A DNA stretch of 64,000 nucleotides from assembly GCF_037042905.1 (NCBI RefSeq), contig NC_087245.1, positions 9,612,001 to 9,676,000 of the forward strand. Reading direction: 5' to 3'. This DNA is from Lytechinus pictus (lineage: Eukaryota). The notes beneath the pieces were generated by a model. The model was not told where the DNA came from. It ran no database searches and was given only the letters and a program-made list of their open reading frames with translations. Shown here in pieces: positions 9,396 to 64,000 of the stretch. The translations under genes were made by a program, and so were the position numbers. The stretch's first letter is position 1. The number at the start of each line of letters is the position of its first letter.

Positions 9396-11199
9396 ATAAA
9401 ATAAATGGAAATGCTATATGCATTCTTAGTAACTAGGTGTGCACGTACTTTCTGTTTATTCTGATTGGCTAAAAATCACAGTAACGCTAGGTTTGATTTT
9501 TAGAGTTGCGTTTTAATGCTATATATTCCCACTCCCCTTGTTTGTTTGCATGCTTGCTTTATTTCTGTGTTCAAAATAGATTAATCAATCAATATAAATG
9601 AAAATAATCCATTATACAAAATATAATCATAATTCATTAAATGAATGTGAAATATCGATGTGAGCATATCACTTTTATATGATTATATAACAAAACAAAA
9701 ACATGTATTATTAATGAACGCATTCAGGAGACCGTGAGCGGTACGGCTTTCAGCTTGATATTTTTTTTTTTAAAGAAACCCCCTTTTTTTGGGGGGGGGG
9801 ACTTTTCAAATTTATTACTAAGGCGCCAGCACCCGCAGTAAAAAAAACCTTCCATCTTAACATAAGTAATTTTTTAAGCCACACTATACAGCCATAACAA
9901 TAATATTAATTACAAAACGATCAAATGAGCTTTCACAGAGTCAGTATATAGAGCTATACCAATTTCCTCGGCAAACACACATTGATGTGATTTTGATGTC
10001 AATTTTGCCAGCGATCAAAGCAAAACCTTTGCAATAGATGGCAGAGGTAATGATAACGTATAAAGAAAATGGCAAAGGAAACTACATACAGACCTGCCAA
10101 TTTGTGCCTCTATACCATTTTTACATTAGCCACATAGGCCTGCTGGCATCAAGCGGAAGTGATAGCACGTACCTCCCAAAATTTCCTTGGGGGTGCTGCG
10201 TGTATTATTCTCCATAGACAGCACCCCCAGGTATTTTGGAACGTGTGAAAATTGAAAGATGTAACCAAAATAACCTTCATTTTGGGGTTAAAACCTTTTT
10301 TTTTCCTTCAAATTTTCAGGACAGCACGGGACAGCACCTAGCTCCAGTAAGAAAAAAATCGTTTCCAGGGGCCTGCTTTGTCGTTTTATCCACCTCTGCG
10401 AGTTTTTACACCATACCGGCCCCAGTCCCAGTCCAAGGATTTATTTGTCCCTCTGCATAATTATCAAATTATAAAGCGCATGAAAAAAGCGCATGAACTC
10501 GTAAATTTAGCATAGACGTCATTAAATATGATAAACACAATGCTACGTCACACGAAAATCTTCCATTGCATGCAATAAACATTTACCCGGCTTTTCACAA
10601 ACAGCTTATGAACAAAATATACAATTTAAGGTTTTGTGGTCAAAATGTCCAAGAGAAATGTATTCTTTTTATTACAATAAAATGTAGAAAATATAAAGTT
10701 CAAAAGATATCGTGTACTTAACATATCCAAATGCGATTTTATTTTAATTTCAGGAAAATTACAGAGGGAGGTTTTTAATGTTGGAATATATCCATAGTAC
10801 TTTCGGAGAAATCATAGTTCTAGGCATCTCCTCCAACATCAATTTCGTACGTGCAAATTCGTCTCAGTCACAGTATCACATGACTTGTGCCTATTGTATA
10901 AGACTCGTGAGAATCTCATGAAAGGCCTAATTTTGCGAAAAAGACCAGTGGCGACCGCACAGAAGTAACAGAACGCTAACATTAGGGCCAGTCACACCTT
11001 TCACGGGTGACCACCGCCTTGACCCCGCCTTGACGCATTGTTTTCACTAACAGAGCACTAACAGTAGGCTTACTGGTATCGATAAACCCACAGAAGCTTA
11101 GCCGAATTCCTAATAATCCATAAAAGGCTTAGTAGAATTAACTAACAGTGGCGCTAATGCGGGCGCTAATGTTAATACTAATCACTAACAGTGCCAACA

Positions 11200-11830
11200 G
11201 GACATCTACCCCCCGGACATCTACCCCCGGACATCTACCCCCCGGACATCTACCCCCCGGACAATTACCCCCCGGACATCTACCCCCTAGGACAAGTACC
11301 CCCCGGACATTTACCCCCCGGACATTTACCCCCCGGACATCTACCCCCCGGACATTTACCCCCCCCCCAGACAGGCTACCCCCGGGCATCTACTCACGGA
11401 TATTTTGGATATGGGGGGGTAAATGTCCGGGGGGTAGATGTCCGGGGGGTAGATGTCCGGGGGTAGATGTCCGGAGGGTAGATGTCCGGGGGGTACTTGT
11501 CCTAGGGGGTAGATGTCCGGAGGGTAGATGTCCGGGGGGTAGATGTCCGGGGGGTAGATGTCCGGGGGGTAATTGTCCGGGGGGTAATTGTCCGGGGGGT
11601 GGATGTCCGGGGGGTGGATGTCCAGGGGGTGGATGTCCGGGGGGTGGATGTCCGGGGGGGGGTGGATGTCCGGGTGGTGGATGTCCGGGGGGTAAATGTC
11701 CGGGGGGTAGATGTCCTAGGGGGTACTTGTCCTAGGGGGTAGATGTCCTAAGGGGGTGGATGTCCGGGGGGTGGATGTCCGGGTGGTGGATGTCCGGGGG
11801 TGGATGTCCAGGGGGTAGCTAGATGTCCGG
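11200..11830. repeat. Foldback-type element: inverted arrays of a ~15-bp repeat (GGACATCTACCCCCC)
   Basis: C-rich array 11200-11390, short spacer, then the reverse-complement G-rich array 11414-11830; resembles the modular inverted repeats of foldback (TU-like/Mutator) elements. Confidence 0.85.
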
Positions 11831-27155: not shown

Positions 27156-30100
27156 TTAAAACTTTCAATTTTTCTTTAAAGTGATGAGTTCATTAAAACT
27201 TATTGTAGTGTTTCTCCAAAAGAAAAAAAAATAGGAGTATCTTCAAAATATGTGATATTGCTAGGTGTTTGTAGTTTCAGATATATAATTGTTTGTTTGA
27301 AATCATTGTAAAATATCCCTTTAGATTTTACTCTTCACACTGCACCCTTTAATAATCTTATTCTTCTGAACTATTCTTTTTCTATAACCTTCACTTACTT
27401 CAAATTTAACAACATTTACAAGTTAATTTCCTGAATTGTGCAATCATTTGTTTTTACTACAGGAAGCAGACTAGTAGTTGTTGACATGACCTTAATTCAT
27501 GACAGATGCTATAACAAAAGGTTTGAAGTTTAAGTCCAAAACGCAACCACAGTTATTCTTCCACTCGAGGTCATGCCCGTATGATTTCTTTATTGTTGGC
27601 TATTCAAACAACTTCCCTCAATCAAAGTCCGATAGAATTCTGATCGAATGAGTCAGACTTGTAACCACATAGGGTGTTCCCCATTTTGAACTTAAGAGTC
27701 AATATAATTTTTGCCACCTGTTTTTATATTGGATATAGAATTTGTAGCATTTGTGGGCAGTGTTTACACATATTGTCTTTATTTTGTCATATTTTTTTAC
27801 CTTACGTAAAATGATAGTACTGGTAGCCATTATTGGCCTACTTGTATCTCTGCACAGCGATATTCACACTGCACCTGTAGATAGATATTTGATGCACATT
27901 TGGAGCTCAATGTAAAGCCTACATGTATATAAAAAGGAGACTTGGTGGTGTAAAGTAGTGTGGTAGACTTCCCATTCAGAGACATGAAGGGTGCTGTTTC
28001 ATTGAATTAAAAATCAATTTCACAATTTTTTTTAGTTGAAGAATCACCCTCCAAAAATGAACTACTATTAGTCATAATGGGGGTATATTGAAGTTCATTA
28101 TATTTTATTTGTTATATGATATAAAGTATTATAAAAGCTTATTGAAGGATACTTGTTCAAAGTATGCTAAACTGGAGACCTTCACTTGTTATTTATGATG
28201 CCTGTTCAGACAAGTTTGTGGTTTTGTATTGTTCTATACAATATTTGTGAAAAGGTTCTGAAACTTTTGTTCACTCCTGTTTATCCATCTCCATGAAAGT
28301 AGTAGGCCTGAAAGCATTGTGAGCTACAATAGTGAAATTGAACAATGAAGCCCTGGCAGCTCATAAGTTTATGGGAATGATGTGGAAAAAAAAAACAAGG
28401 GAGAAACATGTAATGTACAAAAAAGATAGCAAACATGTAATACACATACATGTAGACTGAGATGGGGAGGAAGAAAGAGGAGGGGAGATATAAAGAGAGG
28501 GGGAGAGAGAGGGGGGGAGAGAAAATGAAACTGGCCTGTGTTTGGTTAAGGGGATTAGGAACTGACCTGGTGCATGGCCCTGAGCAATGATTAATCTCCA
28601 CCCCTTTTCTCAATGGAGCAACTTGATTGGTCAATACTTTTAATGAGGTAAGGGGATGCCCCCTTTTTCTATTACATCATCGAGCAACAATTTACAAAGA
28701 AGGATCGGGTGATCTTGTTTGGGTCCACTGTGTTTGTCAAGTCTCTTTGCCAACAAGTGTGTGAGTAGAATACATGTACATACTCCTTTTTGTCTTGTTA
28801 ATAATTTGATTAATAACATCTCAATAAAGCTGAAAGGCATGATTGTTTTTATCAACATACAGACAGTTTTTTTTTTTATGAAAGACTTTTTAGAAACACA
28901 ACAGAATCTGTGAATTTCATTCTTTTGAAATTGCAGAAATTTAATAATGTTTTCTCTTTATAGAAGAAACAAATGATTGTCATAAAGTTATTATTTCATT
29001 TTATAAAGCTCCTAAGTTCTTGTGATTTCAGGTTTTCTAATTGTAAAATCATATTTATTATAATTTGATATTTTGAAGCAAGTTTATTTATGATTGAATA
29101 AAATATTTACTTGGGGAAAAAACCCACTATCTGTCAATAACAGTACACCAACTTAAGAATATAGTCATGCAAACAAAACACTTGAGAACTTTAGAGAGTC
29201 TATCTTTGTGGTATTGCAACAAAGAATAGACACAAATAAGTTAAGTCCTCGTGACATCTATAAATACTAGATCCTAGGGGTCATCAATATATCAGTTCCA
29301 GCAGTATTGATTCATGCAAATGAGTAGGTAAAGTTTTTTTCTGATTGGTCGATTGGTCTGATATTATTTTATTGCCTTGAATAGTTGGGTAGGCTCTATA
29401 GGCTTTACTGATCACATGCTATGTGGACTGTGATGGTGGAGGGGTGTTCTTTGCACCATGTGAATTCTTGAGTGTGTTGAGTGGTGCTCCAAGTCTGGAT
29501 GTTCTTGCTCTTTAGGCATAGGTGAGTTTACAATAAGTAGTCAATATCATTATTATTGCTAGGAAAAGAAGTGTTTGCAAACTTCACGTGTCATAAGTTT
29601 ATTTTAAGTAAAAACTTCTTTCTTTCTTTTTTTTGCTCCTTTTACAATGTAGTCCTATTGTCATCTACTTTGATGGAATTGAAAATGTGGGGAATTTATT
29701 ATCCACAATTAATATGCTTTGATATTGATCTATAGATTTTTAAGGTTTTTAATTTCTCTATTTAAGTTTTGATAAGGTCTTCACCATTCACCCTTTTTCT
29801 TTTTGGTTCACATTTCTTTAATATGTTTTTAACTCTTTTTTTTTAAATTCTAGTCTGCTTTTAATTTAGTTCCTATTAGGTATAATTTTTCAATTAAACA
29901 GTCTCCATTACTGGCCCATCAATAATTTCTATGAAAAACTTTTGGATATGAATACAGATTGACTTTTAATTGCAGACGATTGTAAGGAAATTTATCATTA
30001 TAAACCTAAACATAACACGTATGTGAAAGAACCTATCCATCTATAGACCATTATCATCAGTCCTTTCCTTTGACTTCTTTGTTAGGAATATTGTTTAAAC

Positions 30101-32711
30101 ATCAATGATTTAATCACACTTCATTTCACCAAGGCCTTACCAAAGTTACCAAACAATCCTCAGGGTCAAAGTTGAAAACAAGTCATCTCGGACTCGTGAT
30201 TGCAAATAAATGCACCGCGTTGAGTGGCTGCTCTGGTCAGCTTCCCAGAAAATGATGACATCAAGTAGCATATCGTTACTGTTCCAGTGGGATACCTATC
30301 ATCCTGTCATGGTATACTCATAAATGTCATAGCCAATCTTCACCAAGATTCACTGACTACACAAACTTCAGGGTGGGTCTGAAGGAGGGATAGCTTTTAA
30401 CCCTTTGCCTGTGAGAGCTGTGTGGTCCCTGCATTATTTATAAACCTAAAAGCATTAAAGAAATTGTTAGTATAAAAATGGCTAAATAATATGCTGAATA
30501 AGATTGGTTTTGTATATGAATTTACCTGGAGGCAGATCCAGGCTTTCCTATTGGGGTTGGGTGCACAGTAAATTACCCACATTCAGGGGAAAAAATCCCA
30601 CTACCAAAATAAGCTATACTGTACTTGCTACCTTAAAAAAATGACAAGAATAAAAAGTTATTTTCTCTGAGGTGACAGAAATTGTATTAATAAATTTGAG
30701 GAGGAAAAACTTTACGGCAACATGATATCTTATTTCTTGCTAGTGTTGACCAGCTGAATCTCTAAGGGTGTGTTTATGCTTCCATTGTGTAGACAGAATT
30801 AACGTTTTCAAACATTTCAGAACGCCGATCGTAAACGTGGTCCTGGGAGTGCTGTTTATGCTTAACTTTTCAGAGGCGAAATCACGATCTCTAGCTGGCT
30901 TTGCATCGCAATTTTCGTTGAGCAGGAAAGCGAGGTCAAATTGGGCGCGCCCTTTTTCGAAAGTTTATCTTATCTGAGTGTTGTTATGGTCGACTCCCGG
31001 GGGTCGACTTTTATTTAAACATTGAACAATTTCCAAATAATCGCATGGAGCTAATTGACATAGCCATAGAATTTCCACCAATCCTGGAATAGTCCTCCAT
31101 CGACATTCATGTAGGAAGTAGGAAATACATGTAAGTACCATACAAGTTTGGGGAAAGATAAAAAAGTTTGCAGGTGGGAGATATAAAGCAAATAATACTG
31201 AAGAGAGAGAATTGGAAGGGCAAAATATTATGATGCTATTCAATGTCTGTCTCGGAAATCTTCCTACTCATTGTGCAATTAACAAAGACTAACGCTTGCT
31301 CACTAATGCCATGTGTCTCTTCGATGAGATTTCCCTGAACGGAATAAGCTGATAGCAGATTGATAGTCCATGATGATGGAATATGGCAATTAGACAAAGG
31401 GTATAGGGTCAGAAGTGCAATATGAAATCTGTTTGTTTGAATTTCATAGTATAATGATATTTGATACTGGTAAACATCTCAGATGATGCTCATTCCCATG
31501 TAGTGTTTTTAGAAAAGTCATCCTTATGTATATGAATCTTATTTATTCAGTAAGTCTATGCTCTTCTGGTTTGTGGCCTGTCAGTATAACATGTTCCACA
31601 TGCATGCTATCCATCCATGCAACAGGAAACGTAATTTACAATCGATGTGGCTCTCCATCCTCTCTGATTCCATCTTCACAAGCTCTTTGGAGCAGCGCCC
31701 GGCCGGCAGTAGACAAAACCCTCCAGCTTCCACTCTTATCTTCCGCAAAGGTCGTATTCTCCAGGCCTTGGTGCCGCTATGTCGCGCAAGCCCTCTAATG
31801 TTCAATTCATGAATCTTTGGTTGCGCTTTGCCTCTGCTTACATGATCCTTTTGCTTCACTATGGCAGGATGGGAAAGAGGGAAATTATCCCAATGCCGTC
31901 CAGAGATGGGAGACTTGTATCTGCGCCCTCAATCCATTTTGGGATGGGATTTTAGCAGCTGGAGCCAAATATACTCCTCTTCCTTGATTTAATCAACACT
32001 AAATTTAGGATTTTGCTGGAGAGTTGAGAGAGTGCGATAGTATCTGATACACTAAATTCAATGTTGAATTTTTATTTAGATTCATGAGTTGTCAGCAGTA
32101 CTTCATACTTCATTTTGTGAATTTCAACTGGGGGAAAAAAGGATCATTGATATCTAATTTTAATCATTCATGAATCTATTCAATGTTAAACAATGTACAT
32201 CAGAACCATATTGAAGTACATGTAGATAAAGCCTACATCATGTAGGCTTTATACATGTACTATACACTTGGTTGTATTCATCTCTCTTTCTCTCTCTCTC
32301 TCTCTTTTGTTTTGTCACTTAAAATGGACTATTCCAAAGGTCTTACAATGTAGTTCACAATACAACACATGGCTTTAACATGAAAATATCCATGAACATG
32401 TTAATCTGTATGCATGGTTGTTTGAATGAGAATTAATAATTCATATTTTCTGGAAGGATATCAGTTTCCATAAAAATTCCATGGTATACATGTATGTATA
32501 CATGTTGAGAGAAAAGGGAAAACACACAGAAATTTCCTCATGGGATATTTGGCATTTTTCTACAAAAAAAGTATTTTGTAAAACTGTAATTGTGTTCTAT
32601 GTTTATAGAAAGTCTTGTGATTTTTTCTGCCTATTTGGTAATTTATACAATTAAAAATTATTGTCAAGATCATGGTGATAGTGATAATCATTGTCAACAT
32701 TATGATGATGA

Positions 32712-33440
32712 TTCAATTCAATTCACAATTATTTCATTTTTGGTTAAAAATGTACATAATTCAAAATAAACAAAATTATTAACAAGCTAAAAAGTAGAAA
32801 GTGAAAATGAAATGGGGAACTGCAAAGAGAGCCAAGAGGCCTTGTACATGCACAGTTCCCAGTACATTAAAAGAAATAACAAGATAAAATACATGATATG
32901 AACAAAGTAAACATGAACAAAAGGACAAGAAATTACAATTTTTACAATACAGAAATGACTACACATACTTCAGATAAAGAAACTGCTTCAATTTTTTTAA
33001 GGGAATTAACTGATTTAACACATTGTATCATATCTTTATGGATCAAGTTCCAAATTACAGGGAAATTGTGTCGTACGGATTTCATTACATTATTAGTTTT
33101 AACAGGCCATAAAGTGAAACAAATGTTTAAAACCGGTATTGTGATGGTGGATTTGGTGATTAAGAGCAAACATTTCATGGACATTTTTTAAGAGGTAATT
33201 TATTCTGAAAATAAAGAAAACAATGTAGAGCAATAGAGAAATAGTATAAATCAAAAATAAATTTATTATAAGAGACCTAAGTTTTCTAAACGGTGGGGCA
33301 GAGTGAGCATAATAATGACATCCCATGCAACTACAAAGGGCTTTATTCTGCAATTTAAATATTTTTTATAATTTTTTTCGATTTCAATTTCCCCAAACGG
33401 CAACACAATATTGAAGATATGAGAGCATGAAAGAATTGTA
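32712..33440 (-). mobile_element. Decayed 3' end of an L2/CR1-group LINE
   Basis: Frameshifted QYCVAVWGN, LQNKAL...YYAHSAPPFRKL, FALNHQIHHHNT, PVIWNL...SVNSLKK motifs; short (ATTGA)n tail. Confidence 0.7.
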
Positions 33441-33477
33441 CTGTTGCAGAAGATGGAAGGGAATCATGATAATGATT

Positions 33478-33870
33478 ATGATGATTATGACGATGAAAGT
33501 GATGGTGATTAATTTTGATGGTGATCATCATGATCATGGATGTGATGATGATGATTGTGATGATTATGACGATGAAAGTGATGGTGATTAATTTTGATGG
33601 TGATCATCATGATCATGGATGTGATGATGATGATTGTGATGATTATGACGATGAAAGTGATGGTGATTAATTTTGATGGTGATCATCATGATCATGGATG
33701 TGATGATGATGATTGTGATGATTATGACGATGAAAGTGATGGTGATTAATTTTGATGGTGATCATCATGATCATGGATGTGATGATGATGATTGTGATGA
33801 TTATGACGATGAAAGTGATGGTGATTAATTTTGATGGTGATCATCATGATCATGGATGTGATGATGATGG
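33478..33870. repeat. 79-bp tandem repeat x5 built from degenerate (GAT)n
   Basis: gacgatgaaag recurs at 33489, 33568, 33647, 33726, 33805. Confidence 0.95.
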
Positions 33871-35676
33871 CAATGGTGACGACAGTGGTGGGGATGGGGA
33901 TGATGATGATGATGGTTATGAAGAAAGGAATAATATTACTAAGGTAGATAATGGTGAATAACCAACATATTCTTTGGGTGCAATCTCCCACCAGTTCTTG
34001 TAAAAATGGAGAAAAAAAATTAAGCTTGATAGAAATAGTATAAACTGATCAGCGTTTCATTTTCTTAAAAACCCTAACACATTACGATGAGAGCTTCATC
34101 TATGTAATTTTGATAAGGGCAATCAATGGAGCAGTACGACAGTGCATCGTACTTGCATTTATCCACTCAGCATTAATCTGATTCTTGTATCCAATTTCTC
34201 TTCCATTCCCTCTCATAAAAAGAGAGCAGGCATCGTAATTAAGCTCTGATGTTACACCAGTCCCCATACCCCTTTATCAATTTTCATAAAGCACAACATG
34301 GTAGATAATAATTTGTGTGTATGGGTTGCAAATGCATTTGCCCCACACAATCCAAGTCTCTGGAAGAACACACACACACAGTTCTGCATCTAGTAGCTAT
34401 CGTAATGCCTGCATACAGATCTATGCATCTATTTCAACGCCATTACGTCATATGCCTACTATACACTCGGAGCAGAGCTGAAACGGTGGACCATACTATT
34501 GGTAATCAACATCACAGCGGCATTCTGCGCTACGATTCTTAGCTGTTCGGTTGCGTTATGAGTGTGTTCGCACCCGCTCTGTGAGCATGGAACACTGTAT
34601 AGTAGTAAGCATCTCTCTCTGCAACTATCTGTGTGTATGAGGAGTAGGGCTAATTTATGCAATGACCACTAGGGTGTATGAATGGATGCGTAGAGGCTGC
34701 TTCTATAGATGCGTGTGTAAGGGTGTGTGTATACATACTATTATTCATGGATGGGGAAGCTCTGAAGGCAATAAAATATTGGACCTGCATACTAATGAAC
34801 CTATTCCACTATTTTCTCTTTGAAGGTTGCTGCTTGCGTATAGTAAATTAATTCAATCAAGTAATTATCTACTTGCTCTTTATGTTTTCTATTATTAGGC
34901 CTTTATACACTGCCTCTGGAGTACTGTGTATTTTCTTTTTATTTTGTTTATTTTCTCTCATTTCTGTGACTTCAGAATTTTTATGTGATTCATTGCTGGA
35001 TGCGATCCCCACAGTATTTTTTTTCAACTGACAAGTATTTTTGTAAAGGAAAATTTTGATTTATGAATGTTTTGATTATTCTGTGTGGCTCTTGTCTTGA
35101 GTCATCGGCCCTCGCTTTGCATAAATCTCTGCGATCGTGTGATACACGCACCACTTTGTGGACCCTTTCGCAGAATTTTCCTGTGTTCATGCTTGAATCA
35201 GAATCATCATGTGTTATGATTTCTTCTTTAAGGTGACGCTCTAAATCTGTTTGGACATGAGTATAAATGGAATAAAACTTTGCAGCTGTTCATTTGTTTT
35301 TCTGTTCAGCAACTTTATTGTCTCATAAATTTTTCATGGATTGATATTTCATATTGGAATACTGCTTTTTGAAAGAGTTAGTGATCTTTGGTGTTCTTGA
35401 AGATGGTGTCCTGATAACAATGGCCTCATTTACATGGGAGGATACCCAAGGATATCATTGTGAAATAACTTATCTGTGACTACATGTAATATTTTGCCTT
35501 TGTATTATTCACAGGGTGATAACATGTACTTTGCTACTTTTTATTGTATCTTGCAGAATTAAAAATAAACAACCTCCTCGTGCCTGTTACAAATTGAAAC
35601 TCGCTTATCTTGGCCCTAATCAGCATCAACGACCTGCTATACCGGTGTAACGTGAGGGCGTCCTACCGTTGCCTTC

Positions 35677-51066: not shown

Positions 51067-51273
51067 AGACTTGCTTCATGAGCCAGTATAGGCAGTATTG
51101 TCTTTGTTTTATTCGGTTTTAGCATATGTACACATTTTCTGACAGTTCTTTCTTGTGTATAAGTCTATTTATTTGCTCAATATCATGAATACTGTACTAC
51201 TACCAGAGGAGATACTACGATCGATGAACAGGCACTCAACAAAAAGAGTGGGTCTTCATAAACCCGTCATTAA

Positions 51274-51868
51274 AGGGATGGTTCAGGCTGCAGATATTTA
51301 TATTTCAATAAAATTTACAAAGCAAAATGCTGAAAATTTGACAAAACAAATATCGGAGTTATTGAATTTTACAGATTTGCATTATTCTGGTGAAACAGTT
51401 CTAGGCATGTCTTTATGAATATTCATTAGATGGGCTGATGATGTCATATTCCCACTTGTTCTTTTGTTTTTTATTATATGATATTAGGTTTATTCAAATT
51501 TTTTTATATATACCAAGAACTAAAACAATTGCATTGACAACTGATAAAGTGCATTAGTTATTTATTGCCGCAACTCATTTCATCATAATGGAGACACATC
51601 ATTTACACATGTATGAAAAAATGAAACATTTATGATTTCATGTAATAACATAAGAAAAGGAAAAGTGGGGATGTGACATCATCAGCCCACCTAATGAATG
51701 TTCATTATACCGTGACGATCTGCATATAACCGTTTTCACAAAATATTGACAGAATTTAAAATTCAATAACTTTGTTATTTGTTATCCAATTCTGATGAAA
51801 TTTCCAGCATTTTGCTCTGTGAATTTTACTCCATTTATTTAGATATTTTAAGCCCGGACCATATTCCT
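51274..51868. mobile_element. Kolobok/T2-like MITE
   Basis: TTAA|AGGGATGGTTCAGGCT ... AGCCCGGACCATATTCCT|TTAA; internal inverted tgatgtca motifs. Confidence 0.8.
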
Positions 51869-52129
51869 TTAACGTTATACCGGGACGTTATATACCCACA
51901 AATCTAACAAGGAAAGAAAGGAATAATTACTGCATGCAGTAACCAGAAGAATTTCTCATTTTTGCAAAACTACCACCCCCCCCCCCCCCCCCCCTCCGGC
52001 TGCGCTTGTATGGCCCCGTTATTGCCCTGTTTTTACTTTCGGCCCAGCAGGCAGCTGGTCCACTGACAGAATTCAGTGTGCCCCACCCCCTTTTTCTCTG
52101 CTGAGCTGAGCTAGTTGACGAAATGTCAA

Positions 52130-52200
52130 CAATCAACTTCCGGGTAGTGTGTTGTGTGTGGATCAAAAACTGCTTGACGTCACCAGGCCAGTGGATCGTG
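52130..52200 (+). promoter_or_regulatory. Probable PLEKHA promoter: ETS site and CRE
   Basis: acttccgg at ~52136 and TGACGTCA at 52175-52182, 120-165 bp upstream of the ATG. Confidence 0.5.
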
Positions 52201-52301
52201 GGGGATTAGAAGGTAGCAAGGGCAATTTTACGGCAATCATATAACTCTTGTGGTCTGTTTCTTTCACATTTTGTGTCTCGTCAATTACAGTGATATTCAA
52301 G

Positions 52302-52341
52302 ATGGAAGGGATGTTGTACAAGTGGACAAATTACTTAGCAG
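52302..52341 (+). CDS. PLEKHA8: FAPP-type PH-domain protein (PLEKHA3/PLEKHA8-like), exon 1
   Basis: MEGMLYKWTNYLAG matches the FAPP1/FAPP2 N-terminus; g|gtgagc donor, phase 1. PLEKHA3 and PLEKHA8 cannot be told apart from these exons. Confidence 0.85.
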
Positions 52342-52628
52342 GTGAGCATCTGTTACTCCATTATAGAGTGGGAATGGGATGACGGACGGGAATCGTCATC
52401 GCTTGCCTTCACTGAAGGCTTCAGCGTTGGCGGTCTGTCTCGCGGCGCCCGCTCATCGGCCTCATTACGATGGGCGCCGCAAGTCAGCTAGCTATATGAT
52501 TATGAGATATGCTCGTTGCTCTTATCTTACTACTTGTCTTTGGTCATGTTGGTGCTGCAGAGAGCTTAGGCCTTAGCTGAACTAAACTGAGACCTAGCTA
52601 AGTTAGTGAGTCTGAGCTGAGCCTGGCC

Positions 52629-53076
52629 TAGACAGCTGGCAGCCGTCTGTTTCGAGGAGTTTTTTAACATTTTTTTATTTTTTAAATTTCTCCTCATACA
52701 CAGACGGCTCGCTATCGTGCAGCCACCATTAGGGGACTTACAATGCAAAATCCCCCCGTCGGGGCTCTTCAATTTTTGTCTTTAATGAATCAAACTTTTG
52801 AAAATTAACGCGACCGAAATGCAAATTAATATTTCCTCTTGGCATCAATTGCCCAAAAACGGGGAAAATCAAGTTAAAAGGAACAAAAACAGTGACTTAC
52901 CTCGGCTGTCCCGCAACTTCACTGCCCTGTTTTATCCGAACCTAATACACATAAACATATGGCCATTGAGTCCCCTGTACAGATCGCGCTAGAACTTCGG
53001 TCTCTGTATTTGGTGAGTGAAGCCAACGGAGTTCAGCTGAACAACCAACATAACAGAGACCGAAGCTTTTGGTCTA
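52629..53076 (+). mobile_element. TAGAC...GTCTA element, unit 1 (448 bp; 9-bp TSD; possibly AcademH-type)
   Basis: AGCCTGGCC|TAGACAG ... TTGGTCTA|AGCCTGGCC. Confidence 0.85.
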
Positions 53077-53085
53077 AGCCTGGCC

Positions 53086-53492
53086 TAGACAGTCGACTGG
53101 CAGCCGTCTGTTTCGAGGAGTTTTTTAACATTTTTTTGTTTTTTTAATTTCTCCTCATATAGTACCCGGTACCGGTACACAGTCACAGACGGCTCGCTAT
53201 CGTGCAGCCACCATTAGGGGACTTACAATGCAAAATCCCCCCGTCGGGGCTCTTCAATTTTTGTCTTTAATGAATCAAACTTTTGAAATTAACGCAACCG
53301 AAATGCAGTGACTTACCTCGGCTGTCGCGCAACTTCACTGCCCTGTTTTATCCGAACTTAATACACATAAACATATGGCCATTGAGTCCCCTGTACAGAT
53401 CGCGCTAGAACTTCGGTCTCTGTATTTGGTGAGTGAAGCCAACGGAGTTCAGCTGAACAACCAACATAACAGAGACCGAAGCTTTTGGTCTA
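53086..53492 (+). mobile_element. TAGAC...GTCTA element, unit 2 (407 bp)
   Basis: Same family as unit 1 with private indels; AGCCTGGCC on both sides. Confidence 0.85.
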
Positions 53493-54401
53493 AGCCTGGC
53501 CTAGACAGCTGGCAGCCGTCTGTTTCGAGGAGTTTTTTTCCCGGGGGGGCCACTTCCATTGACGAGTGGATACCATGCGCGACCATGGGGTCTCGAAAAG
53601 CACCCTAAACACTAGACAGGAATAACCGTCGTTTCTGGGGATTTATTCAACAATTTCTGACATTTTACTTTAATCCCCATTAACCCTCATTCCCACCCTT
53701 TTGTCAATTCACAGTCCAAAGTTTGATGTAATTTTACACATCGAATTTACAATCTAAGGATGTATAACCAACAAACTTTTAAAACTGGATATTTTGTTAA
53801 CAAAATACTTTAAACGATATAGATGAAAAGGCATGAAAAATGATACTTTACCGATGTTTAATTGGGTTGAACACGATAAAAATGGTCAATATGGCAGCCA
53901 AACTATGATATATTTACAAACGAACGGAGAGGGCGTCAACAATCACGAATGTGATATCGATATTGCTTTCGATATTATACGATCTGCTCCTTATTTGAAT
54001 TCATGAAAAGGATACGTACACTCTACCTCGGTAATCATATAGCGCTTGCTGGTTTTTAAAGATAAAATTATCATCACTATTATTTACTATTATTATATAA
54101 TTATCATTATCGCTAAAATCATTGTGGTTTTTAAATATTATCGTTGTAAGTATTAATATTTGTAGTAGTAATATTTCATTATCATCGTTATTTTGATTAC
54201 TATTATTTCATTATTATCATCATCATCATCATTGTCATTATTTTCATTATATATATTATCACTATGGTTAAGAGATAAAAGAATAATATTTTTCAGATAA
54301 ATGTTATAGTAAACTGGTCGGGTTGATAAAATTTCTTGTTTGAAATTGAATTCCCAATTGGTCATGACCAGTTCCAGTCATTCTCTGATGATGTTGAGTA
54401 C

Positions 54402-55288
54402 CAGTGGCGTACCGTGGGTCACGGCATTGGGGGGGGGGGGGGGCACCAGCAAAAATTTTGAGTCATTTACTGGGCTGGCGAAGCGCGCTCAATTGCCAGG
54501 TACTGACGTAATAGAAGCATTTTAAGGACTGTTTCATTAAACAGATATGTATCTCACTGATTAAATAATGCGAGCGCGAAGCGCGAGCTGAAATTTTTGA
54601 AATTCAGACCTGAAGAGGGGCATTCTTAGGCTTGTTTGTAAAAATTCACTAAGGCCATACGTATTTCACTTACTAAATTATGCGAGCACGAAGCGCGAGC
54701 TGAAAATTTCTGATAGAGTTTTCAGACCAGTAAAGGGAAAATTTTAAGGACTGTTTTCAGGAATTCATGAAGAGCAGACATATCTCACCAGTCCATTGAT
54801 GCGAACGTAAGCACTAACTGGGAATATTTTATATTCAGACTTTAAAAAAGGGGCAGTTTCTTTTAAGTAGTCATGAGTGAGAAGCATGTCACTACATAAA
54901 ACAATAACTCGAAGTGCAAGGAAATACATGTATATGGTGTATATTGACTTGAAAACGGAATTTTTTAGTACAACATATATTTCATCAAACAGAAATTACG
55001 AGCACCAGGAATGATGAACACAATGTCATAGGCCCTTAGCAAAATATGTTTCATAATTAGAGTTATGAAAAAAATATTTATGTAATATAATATATTATAA
55101 TATAATATATATATATATATATATATATAACTTAATATAATAGAATATGCACTAGTTTCTTCTTCCTCTACTACGCCTCTCCTTTTTTTCTCCTTCTTTT
55201 TCTACTTTTCCCCCTTCTTTTTTTTTTTGGCCAGCCGATGGGGGGGGGGGGCACGTGCCCCCCATGCCCCCCCGTAGTTACGCCACTG
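54402..55288. mobile_element. hAT-like MITE nested in element A
   Basis: TTGAGTAC|CAGTGGCGTA ... TACGCCACTG|TTGAGCAC (8-bp TSD, 1 mismatch). Confidence 0.85.
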
Positions 55289-56616
55289 TTGAGCACGTGT
55301 TTTACCTCACTTTACACTTTCTTTCCCTTCGTTTTTTTCAATCCGCGGCAGCTTTGTCGTGTTATTGACTTTTTTCTTGTTCCTTTTCTTCATATTCTGA
55401 TTTTCAAATTCAACCTTTGTCTCTATATACCTTCATTTCGTATCTCTTTTTGTCGATTTCTCTCATTGTCCACCATTCTTGTCCATGCCACTGAGTCTCC
55501 TGCTAAAGACATGTTAAGGCCTCTACTTTCTCGCATGTTCTAATTCTTTCTTTCTTTATTGTTGTCATTTTCCTTTGCTTTTTCACCTTTCCCATTCCTC
55601 CCACCCCGGCCTCTTTCCTCGTTTTCTTTTCTTCATTTTACCTTTTTCTCTTTTCGCCCTTTTCTCGGTGAAATCCGCCAGGGCCGGGGCAGCTCCCCCC
55701 CCCCCCCCCCCCCCCGGCGCCTGTTACGCCAGGAAGACCAAATGAACAGCCGATAAGACCAATAGGGACTACCAGTAAGACCAATTGAGTTCACTCAGTT
55801 GGATACCAACCACTAAGCCAAAACATCAGTAACAGACTCCAGTATAATTAAGACCAGTTTAAAATCCCAGTTACTATAGGCCTATTCAATACCAATGACT
55901 GGAGCAGTATTATTTGTAACTAGAACAGTATTACCAGACCGATAAACCAATACTCCAATTTCCAGAGTTACTGGTCCAACTGGTCAAGTTGATTTTTTTT
56001 TCTTGTGGTTAATTTGATTTTCTATTTTTATCATTTGACAGATTATTGTCTTATCTCTTCATTTTGGGCTCGGTAAAATGTAGTTTAATGTGTCTATGGA
56101 CAATCAAGTCTCGAAATGTGTGATTTAAAGAGAAACTTACCCGCCGTTTTTCTGGCTGTGTTTGTGTCGTCACATCTTTTTTTTGAAGGGGTGTCTGTGC
56201 TTGTGGGCTTGTCAGTCGTCTTCGTTTCTTTCGAAGAAATGGCGAAGCATAGCTGGTCACCTTCACCTTCCTCCCCAAGTAAACATTGATTCTACTAATT
56301 TTCTTTAATTTGGATTTATTTTCAATTACATTTGAATTACTTTCAGATAATTTCAAAATTATTTTGCAACATCTGTCGCAAATGATTTTTTTTTATTTTT
56401 GATCGGGTGTCACTTTAATTCCTAATGATTCGACAGCGTCAGCAGTGGTGTAATCACGGTGATCCATTTTTGCATTCAAAGGTCTTCTTTTATTAGGATG
56501 ATTAGTCAAATTACGGTCACAATTACAACACCAGTAGTCAGACATAATTACTAAAATGAATTAATGAATCAAATAAAATTACCACCAGCAATCAGCACAC
56601 CTACATGGCAATATAC

Positions 56617-58420
56617 TTTTTTTTTTAAAGATGTTTTATTGTTTTTCTCTCAAATCAAATTTCATACAATGCAGTTAACAAAGTAACAATTGTAAATAAT
56701 AATTCAAATAAATTTCTTAAACTAGTATACATTATGCACATCATGAAATAATATTCTAAGACTGCATCGTACCACTACCAGATGAGTTTAACAAACAAAT
56801 ATCAGAGAAAAAACTTATAAAAGTATATGCGTTGCACCTGCCCCCTCCTTGCCCCCCCCCCCTTCCCTCCACAAACCCCCACACTTCACACCCTCAAACA
56901 TTTTTCGTACACCCTTGCATATGATGCCGCGTTCCGTCTGAAATAAGAAAACACCATAATGAACAAACATAATCTCGTGAGCTCTGTCGCCTCTATACTC
57001 TTGTAAGGAAATGTTCCCATTTCCTTATATGGTTTGATAATTTACCCCTTGTTACTGCTAAAATTTTCTCTTCACGTTCATTTTCTAATATCTTCTCTCT
57101 AATTTCGTTGGGACTTGGTGGTCTTTTTAGTCCTGCTGTAAACAAAGATCAGATATTTTATTAAAAGAATAATGTGATTAATTATTTGTTCCTTCCCTAT
57201 ATTAGCATGCTTAACACCAATGTGTATATCCACCCACCTGGCATTTTTTATTTCATACATATTGAATAAGTTACCGCAATCTATCCATAAGTCTCTCGTC
57301 TTTTCACATGAGAAAAACAGATGCTCGTAAGTTTCTTCAGTATTCCCACAAAATGAACATTCACTATCTGAGAAAATTTTGAATAAATGTAAATATTTCT
57401 TCGTGTATATTAACTCATAAAGCATTTTAAATTGAAACTCTCTAAGCCTACTGCTTAGAGTACATTTTCTGGGTCTTGAAAATATAGCACATATATCTTT
57501 TTCGAAGAAATTATATGTCTTATATTATCAAACGCATACGATTTTTCCAATTTAATACTTAAAAGTGCCTTGTATATTTTATTAGATGTCACGTTTGGTA
57601 AACTGTTAATCTTACCATTAAATATAAATTCTAGATTTAGACCAGTGTCTTCACAATTGTCTTTTTTCTTCAATAGGTGTTTCCATGTTGCTGGAATATT
57701 TTCAAAAACTTTATAAACTTTATCTATTTCATTTCCATCTAAACCCATTTTCAGAAAGTCTCTTTGCTTCCACCATATAAATAATTTTTTTTATTTTACT
57801 TAGAATCTATTTGTAATTAACATTTTCCTGAATTTCTACATCTAATGATAAAGTTATTCCTAATATTTTGATAGTTTCAACTAATTTACCAAATGGAACT
57901 TTAATATCTTTTGTAGAAAGAGGACCCAACGCTAATATAAATGTTTTTTCTTTATTCATTTTTAAGCCTGAAATCTTAGCAAAATCTCCAAATATTTTTC
58001 CGATTCTATCAATAGATTGGGAGTCCCTCACAAAAAGTGTCATATCATCCGCATAGAGCGCTTGTTTGACTTCTACATTACCAAAGCTGATTCCGTGGAT
58101 GGATTTATCTTTACGAATGGTATTAGAAAGGACCTCGATACAAAGTATAAACAAATAAGGAGAGAGGGGATCCCCATGTCTCACACCTCTTTCAACACTA
58201 AAGTATCCTGTCGATATACCCCCATTAAATACGCAACTCAGGGCATTTTTGTATAATGTTTTGATCCAGCTGCAAAATGAGGACCCGAAGCCAAAAGAAC
58301 GTAAAACGTTTTGCAAAAAGATGTGCGAGACCGAATCAAACGCTTTTTCAAAATCTATTGCCATTAAGAAACCAGGTGCATTATTTTGTTGTGTGTAGTA
58401 AATCATATCGTCAATCAATC
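56617..58420 (-). mobile_element. 5'-truncated, decayed L1/Tx1-clade LINE (RT and C-terminal CCHC finger)
   Basis: IDFEKAFDSV, RGVRHGDPLSPYLF, LYADD; CSFCGNTEETYEHLFFSC; AATAAA and poly(A) at 56617-56640; break near 57790. Confidence 0.9.
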
Positions 58421-58627
58421 TTTTTTTTTTTTTTTTTTTTTTTTTATACAAGTGCACACCTCGTTACCAATAATGCATATAGCATTTACATTTATTTGAA
58501 AGCAGGATAAAAGAGCATTGAAGATTAAATGCTTTGCTGACGGGCATAGGTGCCGCGGCCGGGGATCGTACCCCGGACTTTTTCATGTATAGCCTGGCGC
58601 CTTAGACCACTCGGCCACGGCACATCC
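58421..58627 (-). mobile_element. tRNA-derived SINE
   Basis: A box TGGCCGAGTGG, B box-like GGTACGATCCC, unrelated tail, 25-nt poly(A). Confidence 0.85.
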
Positions 58628-59072
58628 TAAATCTAATTGATCTAATACGATACGATACACTACACGAAGATAAACGATACTAGTTATAATCGCGATAAAT
58701 CGAGACATGAAAAAGTTAATAACGATAATGACGTCATTCAAGATGGCAACTTCCTAGAAAAACCGTCAGGTCAGGTGAAAATGTCTTAGATGACAGATTT
58801 CTCAATCATCCAGAGGATTTTTTTCAATAACTCCGGCCCAAGGTATGCAATTACTTAAGTTATTTATATTACCCTGATAATGGAAACCATGAAAATGTCA
58901 ATTTTGCCTAAAAAACAGTTTTAAATCGCGATCTATAAAACGCTAGTTCACTATACGTTGGCTGTAGGTAGGGGCCCCCCTCCTCTTCAGTCTATGTATG
59001 GTGAGTGGAGCCAACGCAGTTCAGCGGAACAACCAAAATACAGAGACTGAAGCTTTTGGTCTACCTAAACAC

Positions 59073-59519
59073 TAGACCAAAAGCTTCGGTCTCTGTTATG
59101 TTGGTTGTTCAGCTGAACTCCGTTGGCTTCACTCACCAAATACAGAGACCGAAGTTCTAGCGCGATCTGTACAGGGGACTCAATGGCCATATGTTTATGT
59201 ACTTAAGATCGGATAAAACGGGGAAGTGAATTTGCGCGACAGCCGAGGTAAGTCACTGTTTTTTTTCCTTTTAACTTGATTTTTCTCCGTTTTTTGGCAA
59301 TTAATGCCAAGAGGGAATATTAATTTGCATTTTGGTCGCGTTAATTTTCAAAATTTTTATTCATTAAAGACAAAAATTGAAGAGCCCCGACAGGGGGATT
59401 TTGCATTGCAAGTCCCCTAATGGTGGCTGCACGCTAGCGAGCCGTCTGTGTACGAGGAGAAATTAAAAAAAAAAAAAAGTAAAAAAAACTCCTCGAAACA
59501 GACGGCTGCCAGCTGTCTA
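59073..59519 (-). mobile_element. TAGAC...GTCTA element B (447 bp), inverted relative to units 1-3
   Basis: Reverse complement of unit 1 with few differences; CCTAAACAC on both sides. Confidence 0.9.
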
Positions 59520-61509
59520 CCTAAACACGTATTTTCCATATTCTGAAAATGCACCCCTTAACAAGTATTGGCGTGTGAAACCCAACCCTTAACAAGTATT
59601 GGAAACAAAACGATACTCTTGGCAAGTATTCCCTGAAATGAACCCCTAAACAAGTACAGCGATATTTTATTATGTCACGGGTCCGTCGGTCGTCGGTTTT
59701 ACCTTTACACACCATTTGGTTTAGTACGGCCCCACCTTCCACACCTCGCGCAAATCGGACTCTAAACACGTAGTGTTGGGGCAAAAAGGACATCCTTTAT
59801 AAAACATTTTAATTTTGCTTCATCATCCGCGCAAATTTGACCCTAAACACATAGCTTTCCTAGCGAAATAGATACCCTTTTTTCATTATTTTTGTGTTTT
59901 TGACACCCTTATCACGTTACGTACGTAACGTGCCCTATCTTGAAAAAGACATCCTTTTTACGTGTTTTTTTGGTCGCGCATGGTATCCACTTGTCAATGT
60001 AAGTGGCCCCCCCAGGTTTTTTTTAAACATTTTTTTTTCTCCTCGTTACCGTACACAGACGGCTCGCGATCGACATCGTGCTGCCGCCATAAAAAATTAA
60101 TAGGGGGTTAACAATACAAATTCCTCCCGACGGGGCTCATCAATTTTTGTCTTTATCTCATACAAATATATACAAAGAACTGGACCAAAATAAAGACTAT
60201 TATGTTTTGGCCTGAAATGCACCAAAACAGGAAAAAAATAACCTTAAAAATAAAAGGGGAAAAAAGTGACTTACTTCGCCTTTGGCTGTCGGCAACTCCC
60301 ACGACGTCCGTGGTTTATCCGAACTTCATACATAATCATAGAAGTTGAAATTACATCGCAAAACAAGTGGGATAGATCATTCAATGATAATTGTAATACA
60401 AAGAAACTATAAAAAACTTTTGGTAAAACGCCACAAAACCATTCATTTTGAAATAGTAAATTAAGTGAATCAATAAAGATTTTACCACATCAGGCCATCT
60501 AACACTGGAGTCGTATTTGTTATTTCAGACTCCTATTAACATTCAGATAAATTCTATCTCTACTTTATGCATAGAATTTATCAAATCATATTTTTAGGTA
60601 TCTAAAGATTCAAACAATTTATGTTAAACTATATTTTGATGTTTGGAATCATAAAAAAAACCTATAATTATCATTTTACAAAAAACCCATTATGGTTTAC
60701 TTTTGTCAACTATTACAATTTGATATCCCGAGGGTACCCATCTCAACCTTCATTATTTTGTGACTAAGGCTACGTCTCGTCTGCTCTTTTTACTGATAGT
60801 ATCGATATCGAGTGATTCTAGTTAGGAAGCTTGTTTGATTATCTATTACAGCAGGCAATAATGATAAAAACAACCATCTATGCGGTAGTATGCATTGTAA
60901 ATCTGGTTACTCAATACATTTTTTTTTTTTCAGATCAATCATGAAAGTTTGAAGCACAATTTTTCAGGTTTCCATATATAGACAATATCAAAGACTCCAT
61001 GCAATAAGCATGTAGCACCATATCATTTTCCACTACATTTTACAATATATTATCTCCTCTTCTACTATTTTATTTTGCCTTCAGTCATGAACTGGAAACA
61101 AACTGTATATTTCTAAATCATTATAAAATGTAAATGGATGACAGATATTTCTTCATGTCCAGATGTGACACAGAAATGCAGCATACATGTAGCATTGCAC
61201 TACAATTGTGTATGAAAATCGATCAAAGCTGCATGATTATGTGTGATTGTGATAGAAAATAAATGAATGAATAAATATTGCATCTGCAGGATCAAAACAA
61301 CAATGAAGTTGACAGTATTCGATTGCACCATATAGAATGGAAGTAAAAGAATTTTTGCTCTCTCCATCTTTGGCTCAGGTAAATTTTACCACTCCTCTCA
61401 TTTCTCTGATATAAATCAACATCACTGTTAATTTTCAATGACATGCAGTTCTGTATTACAGTGCATCTATGGGTAAAGAAACATTCGCAGTAACATGATG
61501 ACACTTTCT

Positions 61510-62300
61510 GAATCCATACACGCTTTCTGGAATCTAGCGGTTCTTGTCAAATTCCTCAGCTATCATATGTGGGTCCACTTCTGACACCCACTCCTTGTGG
61601 ATATGATAAATCATTGGATGACTTATTCTTTTCTGTGTCATAATGCTGCTGAGCCATATTTTAATATGCCTGAGGGCACTGAAGGATCACTCTGCCTCTG
61701 AAGATCTTGCAGGGGATACAAGTAACAGTCTATTAAAGTAAGGTTTCCACTTATGAAAACATTCTACAGACTTCAGGGAACAAAGTGCTGAACAGCAGCT
61801 CCCTGTATCTTTTAATAGAAGAGCAGATGAGCTGTTTCCTGAAGACCTGCAATTCTGATTGAATAAGTCTGTCATGTAATTCTGGGAACGCTATGAGATC
61901 TTGGTGGAAGGCACCCTCTAGCAACATGGAAGCCATTTGGGCTTGTCTTTGGAAGTCAGGTGATGTGAAATATGAATTCGAATAGCAAAGAGCACTGTCT
62001 ATAACTTTGAAATATTCTCCTCGATATGATTTCTGATGCATATGAAATTTGCTGATTGCCTTTTTCCAGTTTTTTAATCCAACTGAAATTAATGCTTCAT
62101 TCTTGCATTTTGACATTTATATCCATCAAATATTGTTTTGCTGCTTTTGTGCAAGTGTGGCATGTCTGTATTTGGCGGCACATGCAGCCAAGCATATTCT
62201 TCAAACCATTTCGACTGAAATTTAAGTATTTTGCATTTCAATTTATGTTCGGGTAAATGAGAGATACCAGAATGGTTTTGCTCCTTGGGAAATGAACTTG
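61510..62300 (-). pseudogene. Decayed hAT (ZMYM1/Tip100-like) transposase with the catalytic core deleted
   Basis: TTF-finger remnant FQSKWFEEYAWLH...GLKNWKKAISKFHMHQKS joined directly to YRGEYFKVID; dimerisation domain LLLVSPARSSEAE*SFSALRHIKIWLSSIMTQKR; stops and frameshifts. Confidence 0.8.
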
Positions 62301-63596
62301 AAGGTGCTCCTAGCTTTGAGGCCGAACTACCCAAATGGGCAGGTGTAGAAGCAATGGCATGGGATTGGGTAGCTGAAGGGTCATCTGAACTACAATTTGG
62401 GATTGTTGATGAGAAATCTGGACCTTGCTCTGCTGTAACACATGGGTCAAATTGAATATCATCACAAGAATCTTGGGTATGTACTGGACTATCATAACTT
62501 GCAGCTTAAGTAGAGGCTGGATTACGTGGTGGGTGTGGTTGAAGTCGGAATTTGAACATGGTCATGTTTAGAAACCAGAGAGATTGACGGAAGAGATTGG
62601 TTGATCAGATGTGGCTGCCAAAGTAATGGCTGGTCCATTTAGTGTGGCATGCGAAGGGTTGACTGGATGACCATATGTGACAGTGGAAGGGGAAACCTGA
62701 TGATCAGATGTGGCTGCTGAAGAGGACATTTGGCATCCACAAGTTGCAGCAAAAAAGTGTTGTAGCCGAAGGGGAGACTGGACAAGCAGGGCTATAGAAA
62801 TTGAAACAAAATTTAAATTATTAATCATTTATGCTTATTTGATTTAGTATTTACATGTTTCAAAATGATATGATAGTTTGGGTAAAATAAGTGATACTAC
62901 AATCAGTATGTACTGATGAAGCAGGAAAAATCGATGACATAACTTACGTTGACCCGGAAAAATACTACAATGCCTCTGATAGACTCATTGTGTGGTAAAG
63001 GCCTGGGGCTGTATTCTGAAAACGTTCTATTCTTATATCTTATCTATGTCACAATCTCAAATTAGTTTTCTGAAAACATTGTTATCTTTTTGATGGACAA
63101 CACAAAAACTAAATGCCTAAACCAGACCACTTTGTTGTTAAGGCGCAAAAAAGATGACTTGTACTTTTTGAAACTAGCACTTGAAATAAAGGAATCCAGT
63201 GTCCTTTGCCCTTTTCTGGTTACAGGTGCAGTTGAAGGCTGACTTGATATTCACATCTGTAAAAATGAAATACACTTATTAGGCAGTTGACAAAGTAGAT
63301 GAGTGAAGGCTGGCTTGAGTCGGTGAATGAAGTAGTATCTGTAGCAGGAGAGTAGACTTGATGTTTCGGGCAGTGGTCTATTGTAGGTTTAAACATGCAA
63401 AACAAACAGAAAGACTCTCTCTTACCCTCGATATTTGACTGCACAAGCTTCCTGTATGCTAAGCCTGGAGGATTCAGACTAAAATTAATTTCACAAATGC
63501 AAAGCTTTAATCATGATGAAGCCTCACATCTTATTTAATTGTATTCAAGCCTAAATTTTGCATATATTTCAAAACTATTTTTTTTCTTTTTTTCAG

Positions 63597-63713
63597 GTTG
63601 GCAGCCACGTTGGTTTGTTTTAGACAAGGGTATCTTGACGTATTACAAATCACAAGATGAGATGCAGCAGGGTTGTAAAGGATCTGTCAAGATGGCTTGC
63701 TGTGAAATTCAAG
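63597..63713 (+). CDS. PLEKHA8: FAPP-type PH-domain protein (PLEKHA3/PLEKHA8-like), exon 2; gene continues past the window
   Basis: [39 protein letters not shown]; strong polypyrimidine-cag acceptor, aag|gttagg donor. Confidence 0.88.
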
Positions 63714-64000
63714 GTTAGGAGCACTTGCACTTATTGTGAGGCTAGTGCACTTAACACTGCACAATAAATGTTCTATACCCAGCAATTGAGCTCATTCAAT
63801 TTAGTACACATGCCAAATTTCACCTTAAGCGATACAAATCCCATTTCTTTGGTATGAATTTAAAACTAAACAAATGATAGATTATGTTAGGCCGTGATAA
63901 ATGAAACAAATAATTCATAACAAAATTGATTATGCAATCAATAAAAACAGTTGAAATACATGTATCTTTAATAGAAAATCACTGAAAGCATAATTACTTA

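What the first reader, a model, noticed from the sequence alone, without database searches (positions are those of the whole stretch)
52620..63470. A second array of the same family at an unrelated 9-mer (AGCCTGGCC x3, probably x4)
Seen: AGCCTGGCC at 52620, 53077 and 53493 separates three head-to-tail TAGAC elements. A 7/9 copy (AGCCTGGag, 63462) follows a CTA terminus. Units 1 and 2 differ by several indels, and unit 3 is much longer and more diverged internally. The 9-mer is unrelated to the one at the inner array. Inference: the target is defined by the end of a resident element rather than by sequence, so any first insertion seeds a growing array. Units 1 and 2 alone could be a tandem duplication.
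Basis: partly seen in the sequence, partly recalled or inferred. Interest (0 to 1): 0.75.

Follow-up and report, generated by a model that had tools for sequence, protein, structure and literature searches.

The report
Transposons stacked at one target site
Three copies of a small non-coding jumping-gene family sit head to tail in an intron, each preceded by the same 9-base word, likely because the family's enzyme cut the same spot more than once, a behaviour already known from fruit-fly and bacterial transposons.

Summary
The three exact AGCCTGGCC copies are real; each is followed by a TAGAC-ended, non-coding element. Units 1 and 2 are near-sisters (5 substitutions in 379 columns), so their pairing can be a local duplication. 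Unit 3 is a different subfamily (67% to unit 1) interrupted by a 6.5-kb nest. It is not one 10-kb unit: contigs of a related organism show its multi-copy sequence ending near 60850, with no 9-mer there, then single-copy-like DNA linked across 63462 to exon 2. The 7/9 copy may still be the worn far target duplication of an older, separate element (about 50%). The inner array is a true insertion: 171-202 contigs per run carry the empty site. Best reading: repeated use of one staggered 9-bp cut site by AcademH-like elements, as for P-element dimers. End-directed targeting (IS30-like) is not excluded.

The parts
52302..52341 (+).
   Evidence: ATG to GT donor read from the sequence; the gene name comes from no call
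52620..52628 (+). 9-mer copy 1 (left target duplication)
   Evidence: exact
52629..53076 (+). Unit 1, 448 bases, TAGAC...GTCTA, non-coding, only 5-base perfect inverted ends
   Evidence: 94% to 59073-59519
53077..53085 (+). 9-mer copy 2
   Evidence: exact
53086..53492 (+). Unit 2, 407 bases; four indels relative to unit 1, one of them 8 bases inside the left end
   Evidence: 5 substitutions in 379 columns vs unit 1
53493..53501 (+). 9-mer copy 3
   Evidence: exact
53502..53539 (+). Left 38 bases of unit 3, identical to the family left end
   Evidence: 38 of 38 to the inner copy
53540..60016 (.). Abundant CCC...GG non-autonomous element inserted in the T run of unit 3; carries the inner array
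   Evidence: 46-base inverted ends, 93%; summed contig depth about 1e6
53604..59528 (.). Inner array: CCTAAACAC, 5451-base element (53613-59063), CCTAAACAC, inverted 447-base unit (59073-59519), CCTAAACAC
   Evidence: the right 80 bases of the large element are 88% like the unit 1 right end; the empty site is seen as loose ends before 59520 in 171-202 contigs per run
60017..60845 (+). Remainder of unit 3, a different subfamily; right boundary uncertain, about 60838-60845; not followed by the 9-mer
   Evidence: 67% to unit 1 over 332 columns to 60340, 222 of 289 ungapped columns; depth about 1.7e3-2.2e4 up to the bin ending 60878, then 3-32 in the next bin
60846..63461 (.). Single-copy-like to low-copy DNA shared with organism A: host intron or an older fourth element; holds broken reading frames on the minus strand with hAT-like motifs (recalled, unconfirmed)
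   Evidence: depth 3-95 over 60879-62858 and 94-1057 over 62859-63518; frames; no hAT Pfam family, no homologue, no Atlas hit
63462..63470 (+). 7/9 copy of the 9-mer after CTA; possible worn far target duplication
   Evidence: spanned by organism-A contigs (table 8)
63597..63713 (+). Second exon of the host gene
   Evidence: Pfam PH domain E=2.7e-5 on 63599-63712

Best explanation
Non-coding TAGAC...GTCTA elements are stacked at one 9-base word, likely because a transposase made elsewhere (probably AcademH-type) re-cut the same staggered site at least once, and one further unit likely arose by local copying. Each insertion duplicates the 9-mer and leaves one original host flank beside each copy (shown by the anatomy and by the inner empty site). 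Inferred: the enzyme prefers a motif just outside the 9-mer (AAAAGCAT-like, core GC at -4/-3), so a half site survives insertion and the spot stays attractive; a newcomer then lands flush against the resident with one 9-mer between them. Unit 3, with its nested insertions, is probably older than units 1 and 2. Units 1 and 2 came either as two insertions of one young subfamily or by unequal exchange in the 47 identical bases at the junctions. The far duplication was either lost in a deletion near 60840 or survives, worn, at 63462 behind an older fourth element.
For: All 3 of 3 GTCTA/TAGAC junctions in the window have a 9-base spacer equal to the outer flank. Mixed subfamilies and mixed orientation at one 9-mer in the inner array, whose empty site is in 171-202 contigs per run. 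The loose-end consensus beyond the right end reads AAAAGCAT then 9 bases in 4 of 4 runs (2 samples; 95-110 contigs each; agreement 0.36-0.37). The inner left flank matches it 7 of 8, reached by 0.11% of window 8-mers; the outer left flank matches 3 of 8 with AGC in register. Contigs carrying the inner 9-mer would align on 59064-59072, so the consensus should not come from that site itself (inference). One more dimer junction with a 9-base spacer in organism A (table 5c, read by eye), 6 of 9 like the outer 9-mer in the element's direction. Precedent: P-element dimers carry one target duplication at the junction (10.1101/158386, passages) and the P target motif extends beyond the duplication (PMC2577343, passages). 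AcademH makes 9 or 10 base duplications (PMC10045372, passage).
Against: The motif rests on a majority consensus with low agreement, from two samples that share most loci; I could not see individual flanks (24 rows shown, 4953 hidden). A 3 of 8 match at the outer flank is reached by 41% of window 8-mers, and the inner right flank (4 of 8) by 18%. In the inner array the young-looking unit lies on the weaker flank, unless it came first. The element ends do not restore the motif (1 of 8), unlike P-element ends. Unit 3 has no far 9-mer at its own end, so its left 38 bases and its remainder may come from two insertions. No transposase was found, so AcademH is by termini (recalled) and duplication length only.
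Confidence: 0.5

Rival explanations
1. End-directed targeting: the transposase binds a resident end and inserts the newcomer exactly 9 bases beyond it, re-using the old duplication whatever the flank, like IR-targeting by IS30.
For: All 5 family-like elements found in 52620-60845 lie in arrays; the two 9-mers are unrelated; each of the 3 junctions has a unit-1-type right end facing another element's tip; a further dimer in organism A. IS30 inserts next to its own ends (PMC9333248, passages).
Against: The consensus beyond 95-110 right ends per run reads AGCAT where a neighbour would give GTCTA, so most ends have no neighbour; no right-end to right-end joint is among the 15 best-supported joints (686 hidden; joints at the left end were probably filtered, since 59454-59492 was skipped). 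IS30 targeting gives only left-right junctions with a 2-base spacer; here one junction is right-right. The window was picked for having arrays.
Confidence: 0.25
2. The outer array needs only one insertion: a unit-1-type copy was tripled by slippage or unequal exchange, then recombination in the shared left end with a downstream unit-3-type copy deleted the DNA between, giving a chimeric unit 3 without a far 9-mer.
For: Units 1 and 2 share 16 of the 21 variable sites against the inner copy; the left 38 bases of unit 3 cannot be assigned to a subfamily; no 9-mer follows the unit-3 remainder; organism-A contigs have 83-84 other letters left of 60839 (2 records of one sample).
Against: A first exact duplication of 9-mer plus element has only 9 bases of homology to use; unit 3 is collinear across the CCC insertion; organism A has mosaics between the two subfamilies (joints 59218-60236 and 59396-60126), so shared left ends are expected; this does not explain the head-to-head inner array; the features at 63462 suggest the far site survives.
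Confidence: 0.2
3. Units 1 and 2 are an assembly artefact (two haplotypes or a collapsed repeat written in tandem).
For: Two similar neighbouring copies; no reads of the window's own organism were found (best share 0.05).
Against: They differ by four indels and 5 substitutions and are joined by an exact 9-mer; the mixed-subfamily junctions cannot arise this way.
Confidence: 0.04

Closest known systems
Tandem transposon dimers by double insertion (P element, jockey, hobo; bacterial IS dimers). 10.1101/158386, 12 of 17 passages seen
   Same: Whole elements separated by one copy of the target duplication; mostly head to tail, some head to head; later growth by unequal exchange; junction deletions are common.
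   Different: Here the spacer is 9 bases, the partners are non-autonomous and of different subfamilies, and two arrays are nested within 11 kb. No population data show that the events are recent.
P-element 14-base palindromic target motif. PMC2577343, abstract and passages seen
   Same: Preference extends beyond the duplicated bases; hot spots are hit repeatedly.
   Different: P-element tips restore the motif after insertion; these tips match the candidate motif at only 1 of 8 positions.
AcademH lineage of Academ. Original paper not held, nothing of it seen; duplication length from PMC10045372, passage
   Same: 9-base duplication; TAG...CTA ends (recalled as typical of Academ, from no call).
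   Different: No transposase, helicase or PHD finger found here; perfect inverted ends are only 5 bases. I cannot tell whether that paper or its supplements already describe arrays.
IS30 IR-targeting. PMC9333248, passages seen
   Same: Insertion right beside a resident end makes a new end-to-end junction.
   Different: IS30 gives a 2-base spacer and only left-right junctions, through circular intermediates; here the spacer is the whole 9-base duplication and one junction is right-right.
KolobokP multimers. PMC9587614, passages seen
   Same: Eukaryotic DNA transposons in tandem arrays.
   Different: Neighbours share a long terminal direct repeat, with the target duplication outside the array; here a duplication lies at every junction.

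Membership tests
Double-insertion tandem | One target duplication at each junction, identical to the outer flank | tested here: met
   2 of 2 outer junctions and 1 of 1 inner junction
Double-insertion tandem | Partners of independent origin | tested here: inconclusive
   Met for the inner array (different subfamilies, opposite orientation); likely for unit 2/unit 3; not shown for units 1/2 (5 of 379 differences)
Double-insertion tandem | Empty site with a single 9-mer | tested here: inconclusive
   Met for the inner site (171-202 contigs per run); the outer left flank was not part of the laid stretch, and the listed contigs that span 63462 show no empty site there
Double-insertion tandem | Matching duplication beyond the last unit of the outer array | tested here: inconclusive
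   Absent at the end of unit 3; 7 of 9 copy 2.6 kb further on with post hoc support
AcademH (Academ) | 9 or 10 base target duplication | tested here: met
   criterion from PMC10045372
AcademH (Academ) | TAG...CTA termini, first 11 bases matching a classified family (rule in PMC4455052) | tested here: inconclusive
   TAG...CTA present; the Academ terminus is recalled; no library of transposon consensus sequences was available
AcademH (Academ) | Autonomous partner with DDE transposase and helicase sharing these ends | not testable with these tools
   No genome held; metagenome scans for both ends found 0; the 9 plus 3 frames scanned gave only reverse transcriptase, zf-RVT and PH above Pfam's cut-off
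IS30-type end targeting | Only left-right junctions | tested here: not met
   The inner junction is right-right
IS30-type end targeting | Excess of insertions beside resident ends over motif expectation | tested here: inconclusive
   Most right ends lack a neighbour by consensus; tables truncated and left-end rows probably filtered
hAT (for the relic at 61400-62250) | TTF-type zinc finger and dimerisation domain | tested here: inconclusive
   Motifs recognised by recall; no hAT family in Pfam; none

The most novel reading that the evidence does not exclude
An animal AcademH-type transposase docks on the end of a resident family member and re-cuts the old 9-base duplication, the eukaryotic counterpart of IS30 end targeting. 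At this site it has built a layered stack of four elements from three subfamilies, the oldest (ending at 63461) shared with a related organism and the youngest added on the exon-1 side, so such arrays would be ordered records of successive transposon waves.
Probability: 0.2. Interest if true: 0.65.

Novelty: new member of a known kind. Interest (0 to 1): 0.33.

Why it matters
Stacking at one duplicated site is a known first step from dispersed transposons to tandem arrays. A second animal system with a 9-base cutter, mixed subfamilies and hundreds of copies would let one separate two mechanisms by counting alone: a surviving half site versus attraction to a resident end. It would also give a target motif for a transposon group whose enzyme is little studied (own knowledge). 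As it stands this is a tidy instance of a known behaviour with an unproven mechanism.

Tried and rejected
No own genome, so no copy catalogue or tree. The run search with the left flank found 5 runs, all at share 0.05; 4 of 5 were laid (X5, same size as X4, left out), and only on 59064-64000, so the outer left flank and units 1-2 were not examined in them. Metagenome scans for the two ends: 0 and 0. Homologue search (57 candidates, none at E up to 0.01, longer proteins only) and Atlas search for one relic frame gave nothing. No tRNA gene in 52000-64000. A seventh TAG...CTA pair with a 9-base flank (29513-34871) was dropped as chance: no inverted ends. Candidate unit-3 right ends at 60820 and 60845 both lack the 9-mer. 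A second shared motif near 60722 is not collinear with the 63461 end and was set aside. Look-ups of earlier notes near this place, by sequence and by words across the scan were empty. Eight literature searches listed no paper on Academ arrays; most hits were seen as listings only, and the AcademH paper and its supplements could not be read. PMC10294476 (passages) and PMC12210899 (passages) gave nothing on termini or arrays.
Full report
Setting. The finding lies in an 11.3-kb intron (52342-63596) between a short first coding exon and an exon with a PH-domain match. Earlier notes on this genome call it a sea urchin (unchecked). No whole genome was available.

What is there. AGCCTGGCC occurs exactly three times in 64 kb, at 52620, 53077 and 53493. 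Unit 1 (448 bases) and unit 2 (407) are complete TAGAC...GTCTA elements with the 9-mer on both sides. They differ by 5 substitutions in 379 columns and four indels; the inverted copy at 59073-59519 differs from them by 20 and 18 substitutions in 377 columns, and 16 of 21 variable sites unite units 1 and 2. Unit 3 begins with 38 bases identical to the family left end, is interrupted in its T run by a CCC...GG element (53540-60016), and resumes collinearly at 60017, 67% like unit 1 up to about 60340. The CCC element carries the inner array: 9-mer CCTAAACAC, a 5451-base element whose last 80 bases are 88% like the family right end, the 9-mer, the inverted 447-base unit, the 9-mer.

Evidence from a related organism. 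The run search gave only five weak holders. I laid four of them, contigs of two samples, on 59064-64000 at 80% likeness; single-copy parts are roughly 91-96% alike. Summed depth is not a copy number, but the contrast is large: 2e5-9e5 on the unit-1 family, about 1e6 on the CCC element, 1.7e3-2.2e4 from 60054 to the bin ending 60878, 3-95 over 60879-62858, 142-1057 over 62859-63353 and 94-152 around 63462. So the multi-copy part of unit 3 ends near 60840-60850, and no 9-mer follows it. Among the 32 pieces listed (127340 hidden), one contig runs from 62957 to 63825, one links 62315-63334 to 63488-63715 with the stretch between replaced, two start at 63446, and two records of one sample align from 60839 with 83-84 other letters to the left. 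The DNA left of 63462 is thus shared with organism A and linked to exon 2; it is not the interior of unit 3. Loose ends before 59520 (171-202 contigs per run) continue into the CCC element's left part, which is the empty inner site.

The fourth copy. AGCCTGGAG after CTA has P=0.027 by chance in that stretch, or 0.003 as an exact 10-mer. Two further post hoc features favour it as the far half of the original site: the flank to its right holds a 7-base inverted match to the flank left of 52620, one base off symmetry (145 of 63781 positions do as well), and 11 bases just inside the CTA match 60824-60834 in reverse (68 of 9088 real 40-mers do as well against that bin; P=0.08 against the whole 3.4 kb; the match includes a palindrome). 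Against it: no similarity to the family right end, little repeat depth, no 9-mer between unit 3 and this segment, and organism-A contigs that stop at 60839 rather than 60824. I put it at about even odds. If real, it bounds an older, separate element shared with organism A. Broken frames in that segment look hAT-like to me, but no search confirmed this.

How it most likely works. Shown: one 9-mer at every junction, mixed subfamilies and orientation at the inner site, and an empty inner site. That is the signature of repeated insertion at one staggered cut, described for P-element and bacterial dimers (10.1101/158386, passages). Inferred: why the site is re-used. The consensus beyond the right end of 95-110 contigs per run reads AAAAGCAT and then 9 bases in all four runs, at low agreement (0.36-0.37). 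The inner left flank matches 7 of 8 (0.11% of window 8-mers); the outer left flank 3 of 8 (41%), the inner right flank 4 of 8 (18%), the element tips 1 of 8. A preference outside the duplicated bases would survive on one side of each insertion, so unrelated 9-mers do not exclude sequence targeting; the P element has such a motif (PMC2577343). The same consensus shows that most right ends have no neighbour 9 bases away. Yet one of 12 listed rows of table 5c (354 hidden) is, read by eye, a head-to-tail junction with a third 9-base spacer, 6 of 9 like the outer 9-mer, so arrays recur; another row is an insertion into the body of a copy. Left-end rows were probably lost to the tool's filter, so no dimer frequency can be given. 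End-directed targeting as in IS30 (PMC9333248) remains possible, though IS30 makes only left-right junctions and one here is right-right. The sisterhood of units 1 and 2 fits unequal exchange, local hopping or two insertions from one young subfamily equally.

Family and novelty. A 9-base duplication fits AcademH (PMC10045372); the TAG...CTA link is recalled, the original paper could not be read, and no enzyme was found. The elements work like double-insertion tandems and are AcademH-like, not shown members. Eight searches listed no account of Academ arrays, within the limits of the library. Earlier notes on this genome mention motif-favoured AcademH-like clusters and motif-guided stacking of P-like elements; these are leads only.

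Verdict. Three copies confirmed, unit 3 re-drawn, fourth copy undecided, mechanism a known kind with an open choice between half-site and end targeting. Interest 0.33.

Noticed in passing
window 54402-55288: Element with CAGTG...CACTG ends and an 8-base flank repeat with one mismatch (hAT-like by recall), nested in the large inner element.
   Followed up: partly
window about 56620-58420, minus strand: Truncated LINE fragment (RVT_1 E=5.5e-26, zf-RVT E=1.2e-9) abutting a T-tailed SINE-like piece at 58421 to about 58625 that resembles 9343-9444.
   Followed up: partly
window about 53160-53183 and 60040-60050: Units 2 and 3 each have an extra stretch (24 and 6 bases) at nearly the same internal position; most organism-A copies of the unit-3 type lack the 6 bases. 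Possibly excision footprints.
   Followed up: no
window 61400-62830, minus strand: Broken frames with zinc-finger-like and dimerisation-like motifs recalled from hAT transposases; unconfirmed by four searches.
   Followed up: partly
window 63335-63446: About 110-150 bases that do not align, or align only with many gaps, in the listed organism-A contigs of both samples, right beside the 7/9 copy (table 8).
   Followed up: no
window 59081-59088 and 53594-53603: The family right end contains AAAAGCTT reading inward, close to the flank consensus, but 8 bases out of register when read outward; unexplained.
   Followed up: partly
window 11194-11830: Palindromic element built of 15-base GC-rich tandem units in two opposed arrays.
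   Followed up: no
window 33466-33869: Five near-perfect copies of a 79-base unit, 99% matches.
   Followed up: no
window 8456-9297, 3332-3575, 51270-51872: Long palindromic elements of MITE type.
   Followed up: no
window 56054-56392, minus strand: An exon-like open stretch with a GT donor inside the large inner element; no Pfam family above cut-off.
   Followed up: partly
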